64,000 nt of DNA from an uncultured Woeseiaceae bacterium (GCA_945788625.1 CALZMQ010000022.1:30007-94006); one strand, 5' to 3'. Positions 3,246 through 5,594 are shown, counted from the first letter of the stretch. Notes: generated from the letters alone by a model not told the origin. Numbers and translations: made by a program.

Positions 3246-4643
3246 CTAGTTGCGATTATCGCAATCAGCGTCCTGCCGACCCCTCAGTGCCCACAGGTGA
3301 GAAACGGCCAGGTCCCGATCCATCTGCTCGCCGCGCCACTGGGTCACACAGGTCTGTGAGTGGATGCGGCGGTCTTCGAGTCTTTCTTTGGCGTTCGTGG
3401 CGATGTCATCTGTCAGTTGCGGCAACGCGTGCCCCGATGCATCGATCTTGTGACCTATCGGGTTCCTGAAAACGATTTTCCCGTCGTTGTTCTTCTCACA
3501 GCCAAAGCCGCCGTCGTGTACCAGCGTATGGTGGAAGCGACACAACTGCACGAGATTGTCGAGGCTCGTTTCACCACCGTTGGCCCAGTGCTTTATATGG
3601 TGTCCGTCGATGCGGTAGCGGTGCGTACAGCCCGGGAAGCGGCAGTTTCTGTCTCTCGCCTTCAATGCGCGTCGCATGGCGGGCGGAATAACGCGGGATT
3701 TGCGGCCGATAGACAGCGGTTCGCCCTTGATATCCTCGACGAGCGTGCTGATGGAGGTGTCGCAGCAGATACGCCGCGACGTTTCCGCGGTAACGTGAGG
3801 ACCGACTTCCAATAAAGGGGTCAATAAAGGGGTCGGATCTATTTTCTCGGTCGGAGCACAACCTGGGTCGGGCGTTATCTCTCGAAAAGAAAATGGATCC
3901 GACCCCTTTATTACATGCAGCATCACCTGGTAGCGATCGGCGGAGGAGGACCTGGCCGGGCCTTTCTCGAGGTAAGTCTCGGCCATGGCAGCAAGCGCGT
4001 CCGCGCGTCGCTGGCCGATCGGCTCCCAGTCATCGCCCGAATCTTCATCTGCGGATGCCTCTCTTGATTCGTTGTCGATGGCACTCTCGAGTGCTTTCAA
4101 CAACATCGCACCGACCTCCGACGGTAAACGGCCTTTCAACAGCAGTGAACCGTCCTCGTCCCAGCGAAAGCTGAGTGAGCGGCTATCGAACTGTTGCGAC
4201 GCAATGTCCTCGTCGTTCAATCGCTCTGCGCGTCGATAGCCACGAACCAGTGTCTCCACATGATGCGCCGTACCGTTGCGCGCGATCATCAGCAGGTAGT
4301 CTTCATTTTCCGGTGTTGCTACACGTGTAATGGCCCGCACTTTCGAGTAGCTGATCTCACCCGAGCGAAACGCTGCACTGATCTTCGGCAGCGCACCCAG
4401 CGCATTGGCTACCCGAACTTTTTCACGCCCGGCGTTCATGCCGATGCCGCACTTCCAGTTGAGCCAATGCGCACAGGAACACACCCCTTCCAGTTTCCAC
4501 AGGCCTTCCTGGTCGAACTCGCGGATCTTCACGAGGAGATCGTAGGTGGCGGCGGTGATGAAGCCGAAGAGCTCGGTGATCTCGTCGCCGAGCGACTCGG
4601 AGCGGGTGTACCTGGGGTGCAAAGCAATGGCGGTAGAGGACAT
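3246..4643 (-). CDS. DUF222 (REP13E12-like) protein with C-terminal HNH endonuclease domain
   Basis: 465 aa. The C-terminus carries CRFPGC...HHIKHWANGGETSLDNLVQLCRFHHTLVH (HNH/CxxC zinc finger). The N-terminal ~300 aa have DUF222-type organisation. Confidence 0.85.
   Translation of the reverse strand: MSSTAIALHPRYTRSESLGDEITELFGFITAATYDLLVKIREFDQEGLWKLEGVCSCAHWLNWKCGIGMNAGREKVRVANALGALPKISAAFRSGEISYSKVRAITRVATPENEDYLLMIARNGTAHHVETLVRGYRRAERLNDEDIASQQFDSRSLSFRWDEDGSLLLKGRLPSEVGAMLLKALESAIDNESREASADEDSGDDWEPIGQRRADALAAMAETYLEKGPARSSSADRYQVMLHVIKGSDPFSFREITPDPGCAPTEKIDPTPLLTPLLEVGPHVTAETSRRICCDTSISTLVEDIKGEPLSIGRKSRVIPPAMRRALKARDRNCRFPGCTHRYRIDGHHIKHWANGGETSLDNLVQLCRFHHTLVHDGGFGCEKNNDGKIVFRNPIGHKIDASGHALPQLTDDIATNAKERLEDRRIHSQTCVTQWRGEQMDRDLAVSHLWALRGRQDADCDNRN
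3811..3912. repeat. AT-rich palindromic insert inside the HNH-gene linker
   Basis: A perfect 17-bp inverted repeat, aataaaggggtcggatc (3823-3839) and gatccgacccctttatt (3896-3912), plus a tandem 12-mer aataaaggggtc (3811-3822, 3823-3834). Much lower GC than the flanks. It is read through in frame as ...SDPFSFREITPDPGCAPTEKIDPTPLLTPLL... Confidence 0.5.
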
Positions 4644-4672
4644 GGCAGGCGCTCTCGGGAGATGGACGATAA

Positions 4673-4692
4673 ACTGTTTTTATATACAGTAG
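4673..4692. promoter_or_regulatory. Candidate LexA (SOS) box upstream of the DUF222-HNH gene
   Basis: aaCTGTttttatatACAGta has CTGT-N8-ACAG with an AT-only spacer. It matches 17 of 20 positions of TACTGTATATATATACAGTA and lies 30 bp upstream of the ATG at 4643. Confidence 0.6.
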
Positions 4693-4776
4693 TATACCCC
4701 TATGCCACTGTTTTTCCTATCATTAATCTACTCCGAGCACAGAGATTCGGACACGAAAAACGTCACCCCAGCCGCT

Positions 4777-4832: not shown

Positions 4833-5039
4833 AGACTTGCCGTTGTAGGTACATCCCAGAATTGATCATTATCGAACATATGCGAGCATTGTTCGGTTGA
4901 TAAGGGCAAACCTGACGAAAGTCAGGGACGCAAAGCCGCGGGTCCTCGCTTCCTCCGCGACGCTTCCTGCTACGCCACGAAGGACCCCAAGATCGCCGGG
5001 CTACCGCACTACCAATACTGAATGTGCGAGGCACGCGAA

Positions 5040-5594
5040 ATGAGCAAGAAGATAGTGGTCGTAATAGGTGCGTTTCTCTTGGCGCTGGCTGCAATGCAAC
5101 CCGCTGGCGCTCAAGATGAAGAAACACAATGCAAAAAGGTTCGAGGTCACGGGGAGGTCGTTGCTTATCAGATTCCGTGTCTAGAAGACCCTGAGTTCTA
5201 TTTCTGCATTGTCTCGGAGACGCGTGGAGGACTCAAAGGAAAATGGGTGTCCTACCAGCAAGAAGACTGGGGGAGCATGTTTTTGGGAGACGCCGGGCTA
5301 CCCGTCCCACCTGGCGCTCCTGTAACGTGGTACATCCGTGAATTCGAGGTCTTTTCGACGAAGAAGGGTACGGTCTACGGTGACATGCAGGCTACATTTG
5401 ACGCCCGCATTTTCGATTCGGGCGGAGGCGCTGCGCTACCAACAATAGTCACGGGTGGAACTGGTATCTACGAGGATGCGACGGGCTGGATCGTCGTCAT
5501 ACTTACAGACGAATCACTTGAAAATTTCAAGATTCTAGGTCGAATCTGTGGGCCGAATATTCCGTCTGATGATGATGACAGTGACGACGACTGA
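5040..5594 (+). CDS. Small secreted hypothetical protein with an acidic C-terminal tail
   Basis: Signal peptide MSKKIVVVIGAFLLALAAMQPAGAQ, a GAGG Shine-Dalgarno 8 nt upstream, and a C-terminus of SDDDDSDDD. Lies in a low-GC patch. No recognisable family. Confidence 0.55.
   Translation: MSKKIVVVIGAFLLALAAMQPAGAQDEETQCKKVRGHGEVVAYQIPCLEDPEFYFCIVSETRGGLKGKWVSYQQEDWGSMFLGDAGLPVPPGAPVTWYIREFEVFSTKKGTVYGDMQATFDARIFDSGGGAALPTIVTGGTGIYEDATGWIVVILTDESLENFKILGRICGPNIPSDDDDSDDD

What the first reader, a model, noticed from the sequence alone, without database searches (positions are those of the whole stretch)
3246..4692. DUF222-HNH endonuclease gene with a near-consensus SOS box
A CTGT-N8-ACAG palindrome with an all-A/T spacer (17 of 20 matches to the E. 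coli-type LexA consensus) sits 30 bp upstream of the start codon. From memory, members of the related mycobacterial REP13E12 family were reported as DNA-damage/LexA regulated through a completely different LexA motif. A gammaproteobacterial-type box on this gene would suggest that SOS control of the family recurs across phyla. Its function is unknown (selfish nuclease, repair factor or abortive-infection element).
Basis: partly seen in the sequence, partly recalled or inferred. Interest (0 to 1): 0.6.

Follow-up and report, generated by a model that had tools for sequence, protein, structure and literature searches.

The report
SOS-controlled multicopy DUF222-HNH nuclease gene
A DNA-cutting gene of unknown role, present in at least eight copies in this marine-type gammaproteobacterium, sits behind one of the genome's two best binding sites for the DNA-damage repressor LexA, the same wiring known for its relatives in tuberculosis bacteria but through a different operator sequence.

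Summary
Window 3246-4643 (minus strand) encodes a 465-aa DUF222 + HNH protein. The palindrome CTGTTTTTATATACAG (4674-4689) lies 30 nt upstream of its ATG.

The site ties for the highest score in the 4.67-Mb genome (29.8 bits; recA 26.1, lexA 22.7).

- All six paralogues with an assembled upstream region have a box at the same place. They take 6 of the 11 strongest sites.
- 44 of 79 homologous loci from other genomes, all labelled Gamma-, Beta- or unclassified Proteobacteria, carry a box 1-62 nt (mostly 10-28) before the start. No control window scored above 12 bits.
- Two actinobacterial copies carry near-consensus actinobacterial boxes instead.
- LexA control of the M. tuberculosis 13E12 family is published (PMC3381160).

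So this is a LexA-repressed, intragenomically amplified nuclease gene. It is a proteobacterial variant of a known arrangement.

The gene family also carries an 18-20-bp parS-like palindrome in frame, under DNA-level selection. Its N-terminal half weakly resembles ParB. This scan had noted both features on other DNA.

No expression or binding data could be obtained. What the nuclease does remains inferred.

The parts
3246..4643 (-). DUF222-HNH (13E12/REP13E12-type) nuclease gene, 465 aa plus stop
   Evidence: ORF list and translation; Pfam DUF222 5.1e-23 and HNH 3.5e-5; dN/dS 0.12-0.18 against its paralogues
4672..4691 (-). LexA operator (SOS box), TACTGTATATAAAAACAGTT in gene orientation; core CTGT-N8-ACAG at 4674-4689
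   Evidence: At 29.8 bits it ties for the top of the genome. All paralogues have a box at the same position. Box arms are 92% identical among paralogues, against 54% for the next 14 nt. 44 of 79 related loci carry a box.
4691..4696 (-). -10-like hexamer TATACT, ending on the first base of the operator (inferred promoter element)
   Evidence: Read from the sequence. At this position the box-aligned consensus of the 44 box-bearing loci is T-A-t-n-A-T, with a weak T-G 17 nt further up. The simple promoter scan called nothing at its threshold.
3651..4526 (-). DUF222 region (aa 40-331); aa 10-230 fold as a confident helical domain
   Evidence: Pfam. AlphaFold2 of aa 1-232 gives pLDDT 93.6. The top PDB folds are ParB, Spo0J and Noc, probability 0.96-1.00 but E 0.1-0.5.
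3516..3644 (-). HNH nuclease motif (aa 334-376) with the Cys and His residues conserved
   Evidence: Pfam HNH. C334, C339, H348, H349, N363, H371, H372 and H376 are invariant in 42 sequences and C368 is nearly so. The fold matches the IscB, ScoMcrA and Gme HNH domains at rmsd 1.3-2.7 A.
3779..3796 (.). Family palindrome acGTTTCCGCGGTAACgt (one asymmetric position), read in frame as HVTAETS
   Evidence: Across 80 family genes there are 89 copies, against 6 expected after synonymous-codon shuffling. Compensatory symmetric variants occur.
3811..3912 (.). In-frame mini-element with about 17-24-bp inverted arms inside the disordered linker
   Evidence: Full-length copies occur only in the five close paralogues. 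The interior is inverted in two of the five. The linker has pLDDT below 50.

Best explanation
The gene is one copy of a chromosomal, intragenomically amplified DUF222-HNH nuclease gene of the REP13E12 type. It is kept silent by LexA.

The 20-bp operator begins on the last base of a -10-like TATACT, so it would cover the likely transcription start. Bound LexA would block RNA polymerase. DNA damage activates RecA, LexA cleaves itself, and the nuclease gene is expressed together with recA, lexA and a few helicase and repair genes.

Shown by sequence comparison:
- the operator, its rank in the genome, and its conservation in paralogues and in Gamma- and Betaproteobacterial relatives;
- intact catalytic residues and purifying selection;
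- amplification within this lineage.

Inferred:
- The protein's N-terminal ParB-like domain docks on the family's 18-20-bp parS-like palindrome. That palindrome lies inside its own gene copies and at about eight other sites of this genome.
- The HNH domain nicks or cuts there.
- The breaks feed RecA-dependent recombination. This would copy or homogenise the gene, and possibly rearrange the chromosome, at the moment recombination functions are induced.
For: Operator:
- Searches show the site.
- recA and lexA use the same motif.
- the genome has one lexA.
- 29.8 bits, tied for the top of the genome.
- a box lies at -48 in all six paralogues with an assembled upstream region, including the 42%-identical C2 copy and the frameshifted C14 copy.
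- box arms are 92% identical, the flanking 14 nt 54%.
- boxes stand at most homologues (21 of 27 rows, some loci counted twice, reach 15 bits or more) in related genomes, at 36-85% protein identity.
- 44 of 79 loci reach 16 bits or more, 1-62 nt (mostly 10-28) before the start. The maximum in 1823 control windows is 12.05.
- box-bearing genes fill several deep proteobacterial clades.

Precedent: PMC3381160.

Actinobacterial copies carry near-consensus boxes of their own type.

Gene:
- Pfam domains and conserved HNH residues.
- dN/dS is 0.12-0.18 with dS 0.6-0.75.
- The four intact copies form one clade with 100% support.
- Homology between copies runs only from about -85 to -135 to a few codons before the stop.
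- The family is patchy in the genus: 11 of 24 genomes have it.

Docking-site inference:
- Palindrome enrichment and covariation.
- 12 copies of GTTACCGCGGTAAC in the genome, where about 0.02 are expected (the expectation is my own arithmetic).
- ParB, Noc and Spo0J are the top fold matches.
Against: - There is no expression, transcription-start or LexA-binding data.
- The -35 is weak (3 of 6), and the simple promoter scan found no site at its threshold.
- Some proteobacterial homologues lack the box (L039, L040, L053, L085, L097, the Foliamicus clade, L111). So does the whole non-proteobacterial clade. SOS control is therefore not obligatory for the family.
- The ParB likeness is weak: Foldseek E 0.1-0.5 and hhalign probability 1.3%.
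- No empty site, target-site duplication or terminal repeat was found, so how copies arise is unknown.
- This copy keeps only one slightly asymmetric palindrome.
Confidence: 0.75

Rival explanations
1. It is a domesticated SOS repair nuclease. The family is an ordinary host DNA-repair or fork-processing enzyme that belongs to the LexA regulon. The several copies are plain gene duplicates, not a selfish element.
For: - Strong purifying selection, dN/dS 0.12-0.18.
- Regulation conserved over many lineages.
- No transposase, terminal repeats or target duplications.
- Almost never found on plasmids (1 of 72,556) or phages (1 of 50,697).
- The other strong LexA sites in this genome serve helicase and repair-type genes.
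Against: - Patchy even within the genus: 11 of 24 genomes, with 1-7 matches each.
- One copy is a decaying pseudogene, C14.
- The window copy lies at a synteny break, and several copies lie at contig ends.
- The homologous unit ends exactly around the gene.
- The gene tree mixes phyla.
- The M. tuberculosis relatives are described as repeat or insertion elements (PMC3381160).
Confidence: 0.15
2. It is an SOS-triggered toxin or defence nuclease. The gene would be a suicide or abortive-infection nuclease, in the manner of the LexA-controlled HNH colicins, fired when damage or prophage induction is sensed.
For: - An HNH nuclease sits under a very strong operator, the kind of tight repression expected for a toxic product.
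- The HNH domain resembles the McrA and ScoMcrA restriction nucleases.
Against: - No match to any of the 5027 PADLOC defence models.
- No conserved neighbour that could act as an immunity, antitoxin or lysis gene; the flanks of all copies differ.
- Several intact copies per genome, all under purifying selection.
- The in-frame palindromes are not explained by this reading.
Confidence: 0.07
3. The box is a chance or relic sequence without regulatory function.
For: The bare pattern CTGT-N8-ACAG is not rare: 10 of 100 shuffles of the window reach the observed 2. No wet-lab evidence exists.
Against: - It ties for the highest score in the genome and ranks above recA and lexA.
- It keeps the same position in six paralogues despite dS 0.6-0.75.
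- 44 independent loci carry a box, against none above 12 bits in 1823 control windows.
Confidence: 0.03

Closest known systems
LexA-regulated 13E12 (REP13E12, DUF222) genes of Mycobacterium tuberculosis (Rv0336, Rv0515, Rv1702c, Rv2100, Rv1588c, Rv0095c; Smollett et al. 2012, PMC3381160)
   Same: Both have the same Pfam domains (DUF222 plus HNH). Both are multicopy dispersed chromosomal genes. Both have a LexA operator on the promoter. In both, the family makes up a large share of the LexA regulon.
   Different: The operator here is the gammaproteobacterial CTGT-N8-ACAG palindrome, not the actinobacterial TCGAAC-N4-GTTCGA box. The host is a gammaproteobacterium, probably Woeseiaceae. No RecA-independent promoter or phage attachment function was examined here. 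Induction is inferred, not measured.
ParB-parS and Noc-NBS (ParB-family HTH proteins and their 14-16-bp palindromes; site sequences from my own knowledge)
   Same: The family palindrome GTTTCCGCGGAAAC differs from parS (GTTTCACGTGAAAC core) only in its central bases, and it resembles the Noc site ATTTCCCGGGAAAT. The best fold matches of the N-terminal domain are ParB, Spo0J and Noc.
   Different: The fold match is partial (TM 0.3-0.4, E 0.1-0.5), and profile comparison is not significant. The protein carries an HNH nuclease instead of a partition function. The sites lie inside its own coding sequence.
LexA-controlled mobile-element functions (integron integrases, SXT/ICE SetR, temperate phage and colicin promoters; from my own knowledge)
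   Same: A non-core, horizontally spreading gene ties its expression to the host SOS response through a strong LexA operator.
   Different: No integrase, transposase, immunity or lysis genes accompany it. The unit is a single nuclease gene.
Free-standing HNH homing endonucleases
   Same: It is a single HNH nuclease gene that multiplies within and between genomes.
   Different: There is no intron, intein or defined target-gene context. No empty target allele was found. The presumed recognition palindromes lie within the gene itself.

Membership tests
DUF222 / 13E12 (REP13E12) family | Pfam DUF222 (PF02720) domain above the gathering score | tested here: met
   82.3 bits against a cut-off of 24.4, aa 40-331
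DUF222 / 13E12 (REP13E12) family | C-terminal HNH nuclease motif with the catalytic His/Asn/His and the zinc cysteines | tested here: met
   Pfam HNH scores 24.3 bits against a cut-off of 21.4. C334, C339, H348, H349, N363, H371, H372 and H376 are invariant, and C368 is at least 90% conserved, in 42 sequences.
DUF222 / 13E12 (REP13E12) family | Dispersed multicopy repeat in the chromosome | tested here: met
   Eight places in G000: four intact close copies, one pseudogene, one cut by a contig end and two distant copies
DUF222 / 13E12 (REP13E12) family | Induction by DNA damage | not testable with these tools
Only the operator is shown.
Gammaproteobacterial LexA (SOS) regulon | Host has LexA and uses CTGT-N8-ACAG at its own recA and lexA promoters | tested here: met
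Gammaproteobacterial LexA (SOS) regulon | High-scoring 20-bp operator in the promoter region of the gene | tested here: met
   29.8 bits, tied for the genome top, 28 nt before the ATG, abutting a -10-like TATACT
Gammaproteobacterial LexA (SOS) regulon | Operator conserved upstream of orthologues | tested here: met
   Six of six paralogues. Most relatives' loci (21 of 27 rows at 15 bits or more). 44 of 79 public loci against zero of 1823 control windows.
Gammaproteobacterial LexA (SOS) regulon | LexA binding and RecA-dependent induction | not testable with these tools
   Needs EMSA, a reporter assay or RNA-seq
ParB/Noc-type HTH protein with a palindromic site | ParB-like DNA-binding fold | tested here: inconclusive
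   Foldseek's top hits are ParB, Spo0J and Noc: probability 0.96-1.00, rmsd 2.6-2.8 A over 80-108 columns, but E 0.1-0.5. hhalign against ParB gives probability 1.3%.
ParB/Noc-type HTH protein with a palindromic site | Cognate palindrome of 14 bp or more conserved at the DNA level | tested here: met
   89 observed against 6.05 expected under synonymous shuffling. Codon bias and compensatory symmetric variants are present. That the protein binds the palindrome is not tested.
Free-standing homing endonuclease | Defined target allele that lacks the gene (empty site) | tested here: not met
   The flanking genes lie on different contigs in the relatives that carry both, and no empty site was recovered
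Known anti-phage defence systems | Match to a PADLOC model or a conserved partner gene | tested here: not met
   No PADLOC hit. The flanks of the copies are unrelated.

The most novel reading that the evidence does not exclude
The family is a so far undescribed kind of self-propagating chromosomal element. It would consist of a single gene encoding a ParB-like palindrome reader fused to an HNH nuclease, which writes its own recognition palindromes into its coding sequence and is fired by the SOS response. Damage-induced cutting at these palindromes, in its own copies and at orphan sites, would drive RecA-dependent copying, homogenisation and chromosomal rearrangement between copies. This would fit the report that 13E12 genes sit at most large inversion breakpoints in M. 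tuberculosis (PMC13157036). On this reading, SOS control was re-created with each host's own operator type whenever the gene crossed phyla.
Probability: 0.2. Interest if true: 0.8.

Novelty: new variant of a known kind. Interest (0 to 1): 0.5.

Why it matters
LexA control of DUF222-HNH (13E12) genes is documented only for M. tuberculosis. My searches of the held library found no paper describing it in Proteobacteria.

Here the same gene family is tied to LexA through the unrelated gammaproteobacterial operator. It takes 6 of the 11 strongest operators of the genome. The link holds in dozens of Gamma- and Betaproteobacterial lineages, while actinobacterial copies use their own box.

A regulatory link that survives a complete change of operator sequence is unlikely to be accidental. 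It implies that expression during DNA damage is central to what this widespread, uncharacterised nuclease family does.

The E. coli-type box makes this directly testable in E. coli with standard lexA mutants. The in-frame parS-like palindrome gives a concrete candidate substrate.

Tried and rejected
- Empty-site search: the flanking M16 peptidase and acyl-CoA synthetase genes are not adjacent in relatives, so the element's ends could not be defined. Alignments of the copies show decaying homology, not sharp ends, and no repeats or duplications.
- Defence-system reading: no PADLOC hit.
- Solved structures by sequence: none.
- Whole-protein fold search: nothing at E <= 0.001.
- Profile comparison with ParB: not significant.
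- A LexA motif in the non-proteobacterial homologues: no gamma-type, Cheo-type or GTTC-N7-GTTC site. For one Rokubacteria genome and one Acidobacteriota genome, the palindrome or repeat seen at their own lexA promoter is absent from their DUF222 promoter.
- A second LexA box upstream: the conserved AAAAACAGTG stretch scores only 0.7-8.7 bits. It lies in the presumed promoter spacer, so I do not call it an operator.
- The multicopy repeat next to the gene (window 4846-5009) is not part of the element. It is a c-di-GMP riboswitch.
- The PSSM was built from 20 E. coli LexA sites recalled from memory. Its scores are relative ranks, not calibrated affinities.

Full report
**Observation.** The minus strand of window 3246-4643 holds a 465-codon ORF. 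It matches Pfam DUF222 (5.1e-23, aa 40-331) and HNH (3.5e-5, aa 334-376). The sequence CTGTTTTTATATACAG lies at 4674-4689. In gene orientation the 20-mer reads TACTGTATATAAAAACAGTT, which is 17 of 20 matches to the E. coli consensus. Its core lies 30 nt, and the 20-mer 28 nt, upstream of the ATG.

**Does the organism use this kind of box?** The window is contig C22 of a 4.67-Mb, 59.4% G+C, 107-contig genome. The genome has one lexA and one recA. The recA promoter carries TACTGTTTATATCAACAGTA. The lexA promoter carries TACTGTGAATTCATACAGGA and a second weaker box.

I built a symmetrised PSSM from 20 E. coli LexA sites recalled from memory, so it gives ranks and not affinities. With it the window site scores 29.8 bits. 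It ties for first place in the genome, above recA (26.1) and lexA (22.7). Only 11 sites reach 19.8 bits or more.

**Paralogues.** The gene has relatives at eight places in the genome:
- four intact copies at 82-85% protein identity (C22, C63, C55, C7);
- one frameshifted and deleted copy (C14);
- one copy cut by a contig end (C1);
- two distant copies (C2 at about 42% identity, and C38).

All six copies whose upstream region is assembled have a LexA box ending 28-29 nt before the ATG. This includes the distant C2 copy and the C14 pseudogene. These six account for 6 of the 11 strongest sites in the genome. The other five serve recA, lexA, a radical-SAM protein, a DEAD-box (Lhr-like) helicase and a UvrD-like helicase.

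Among the five close copies, the ten arm positions of the box are 92% identical pairwise. The 14 nt just downstream are 54% identical, although synonymous divergence between the genes is 0.6-0.75.

**Relatives elsewhere.** In a draw of 40 related genomes, 11 of 24 same-genus genomes have homologues, often several each. Most of the loci recovered from related genomes (21 of 27 rows, with some loci counted twice, at 36-85% identity) carry a box of 15 bits or more, usually 11-37 nt before the start.

A scan of the species-representative genome collection gave 80 loci. The closest are Woeseiaceae MAGs, so the window's organism is probably of that family; this is inferred from the titles of the best hits. 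Of the 79 loci that could be scored, 44 have a site of 16 bits or more, 1-62 nt (mostly 10-28) upstream of the start. The maximum in 1823 equal-sized control windows from the same loci was 12.05 bits.

All 44 carry a Gammaproteobacteria, Betaproteobacteria or unclassified Proteobacteria label (families named include Woeseiaceae, Steroidobacteraceae, Halieaceae, Wenzhouxiangellaceae and Burkholderiaceae). Aligned on the box, they share a T-A-t-n-A-T hexamer ending on the first box base, and a weak T-G 17 nt further up. That is a -10 element abutting the operator. In the window this hexamer is TATACT (4691-4696) with a poor -35. The simple promoter scan called nothing at its threshold.

On a maximum-likelihood tree of 80 family members, box-bearing genes occupy several deep proteobacterial clades. 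A few proteobacterial lineages lack the box. A well-supported clade from Acidobacteriota, Methylomirabilota, Spirochaetota, Myxococcota and Gemmatimonadota has no gamma-type box.

**Across phyla.**
- The literature confirms the recalled precedent. [quoted passage not shown]
- The Burkholderiaceae genome of locus L043 uses CTGT-N8-ACAG at its lexA.
- An Actinomycetota MAG has cGAACagatGTTTg at lexA, and tcGTACgtgtGTTCta overlapping a TAAAAT before its DUF222 gene.
- A Rhodococcus erythropolis plasmid copy has TCGAACgtacATTCGA 30 nt before its ATG.
- In a Rokubacteria genome and an Acidobacteriota genome, the motif seen at lexA is not present before the DUF222 gene.

So the link recurs in at least Actinomycetota and in Gamma- and Betaproteobacteria through unrelated operator sequences, but it is not universal. 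I found no paper describing it in Proteobacteria.

This scan's own notebook holds more than 100 notes on LexA boxes at DUF222 genes. The eight shown were all from Actinobacteria or Dormibacterota. A separate query turned up two gamma-type notes that had not been followed up.

**What the gene is.**
- The four intact copies form one clade with 100% support, so the family amplified within this lineage.
- They are under purifying selection, dN/dS 0.12-0.18.
- DNA homology between copies runs only from about 85-135 nt upstream of the ATG to a few codons before the stop. The flanks are unrelated, and there are no terminal repeats or duplications.
- The flanking genes of the window copy are not adjacent in relatives.
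- The family is almost absent from plasmids (1 of 72,556 records) and phages (1 of 50,697).
- It matches no PADLOC defence model, and no solved structure by sequence.

**Structure.**
- AlphaFold2 gives a confident helical N-terminal domain (aa 10-230; pLDDT 93.6 when folded alone).
- It gives a disordered linker (aa 233-314) and a confident HNH and C-terminal part.
- The HNH part superposes on the IscB, ScoMcrA and Gme HNH domains.
- The best PDB matches of the N-terminal domain are all ParB, Spo0J and Noc: probability 0.96-1.00, rmsd 2.6-2.8 A over 80-108 columns, but E 0.1-0.5.
- A profile comparison with ParB is not significant, at probability 1.3%.

The ParB likeness is therefore suggestive only.

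**An in-frame palindrome.** I noticed that GTTTCCGCGGAAAC, read as V-S-A-E-T, recurs inside almost every family member. It usually extends to (G)ACGTTTCCGCGGAAACGT(C).
- In 80 non-redundant genes there are 89 copies with at most one mismatch. Synonymous-codon shuffling gives a mean of 6.05 and a maximum of 13.
- At VSAET sites Val is GTT in 65 of 70 cases (background 14%) and Glu is GAA in 65 of 70 (background 38%). Ser is never AGC (background 26%).
- Changes are symmetric: TCC pairs with GCG, TCA with GCT, and GTC with GAG. Symmetric variants include GTTCCAGCTGGAAC, GTTCCCGCGGGAAC and GTTACCGCGGTAAC.
- The palindrome is read in two frames and sits at five hot spots, including 5-13 codons before the stop.

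That is selection on DNA symmetry, not on the peptide.

The window gene has one copy, at 3779-3796. The genome has 12 copies of GTTACCGCGGTAAC where about 0.02 are expected by my arithmetic. Six of them lie outside DUF222 genes, one at window 59675. The Rhodococcus copy has the variant ACGTCCCCGCGGGGACG beside its promoter.

From my own knowledge, the palindrome resembles parS and the Noc site. Earlier notes of this scan had reached the same reading on other genomes. My tests here are independent of them, but they show only conservation, not binding.

**Mechanism.** The step from LexA to transcription rests on strong comparative evidence and on established SOS biology; I put it at about 0.85-0.9. 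The following steps are inference:
- the protein docks on its palindromes through the N-terminal domain;
- it cuts or nicks with HNH;
- it thereby provokes RecA-dependent copying or rearrangement.

These steps are consistent with the amplification, the pseudogene, the position at a synteny break, and the report that 13E12 genes mark inversion breakpoints in M. tuberculosis (PMC13157036). The rivals are a domesticated repair nuclease, an SOS-fired toxin or defence gene, and a chance box. They are weighed in the fields above.

**Verdict.** This is a proteobacterial variant of a known arrangement. Its interest lies in showing that the SOS link follows the gene family across phyla, and in being easy to test in E. 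coli. No expression or binding data could be obtained, and the function remains open.

Noticed in passing
window 3779-3796, and L033-L112 generally: An 18-20-bp parS-like palindrome, (G)ACGTTTCCGCGGAAACGT(C), is written in frame (as VSAET or RFRGN) 1-5 times into most DUF222-HNH genes across phyla. It shows strong codon bias and compensatory symmetric variants: 89 observed against about 6 expected.
   Followed up: yes
window 3811-3912; G000 C55:19250-19335, C63:15890-15970, C7:9419-9502, C1:27-113: The in-frame mini-element in the disordered linker occurs full-length only in the five close paralogues. Its interior of about 51 bp between the inverted arms is inverted in C7 and C1 relative to C22, C55 and C63. 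The reverse complement of the C63 interior equals the C7 interior but for one base. The frame stays open both ways. It looks like an invertible or foldback segment. It sits at the hot spot where the C14 copy and other relatives carry the family palindrome.
   Followed up: partly
window 4896-5009 (+): A c-di-GMP-I-GGC riboswitch (Rfam RF03167, 68.7 bits) lies just before a 190-aa ORF (5022-5594) that has no Pfam match. About 15 similar copies exist in this genome, and 80-92% identical copies occur across the genus. This is the 'repeat' next to the nuclease gene.
   Followed up: partly
window 59675-59688 (G000 C22:89681); also C2:55400, C19:83198, C31:28426, C34:14594, C38:14040, C40:27937, C19:141904: Orphan copies of the family palindrome (acGTTACCGCGGTAACgt or GTTTCCGCGGAAAC) lie outside any DUF222 gene, several close to ORF ends. 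They are candidate target sites or remnants.
   Followed up: partly
G000 C14:36043-37260: A frameshifted, internally deleted DUF222-HNH pseudogene keeps a 22.3-bit LexA box and two palindromes 54 nt apart, and lacks the mini-element.
   Followed up: partly
G000 C31:35101, C97:3546, C16:53759 and 53741: Apart from recA, lexA and the DUF222-HNH genes, the strongest LexA boxes precede a radical-SAM protein, a DEAD-box (Lhr-like) helicase and a UvrD-like helicase (the last with a tandem box). No box of 19.8 bits or more lies anywhere else in the genome. I did not locate classic SOS genes such as uvrA, recN, dinB or imuA-imuB-dnaE2 to check their promoters.
   Followed up: partly
G000 C1:1-791: The paralogue at the start of contig C1 ends 74 nt from a tRNA-Val gene, which is followed by tRNA-Leu and tRNA-Cys (aragorn).
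   Followed up: no
L122 (Rokubacteria lexA locus): This lexA promoter has the palindrome CTCAACGTATGTTGAG between a TTGACT and a TAGAGT. It is a candidate LexA operator of CAAC-N4-GTTG type for that phylum.
   Followed up: no
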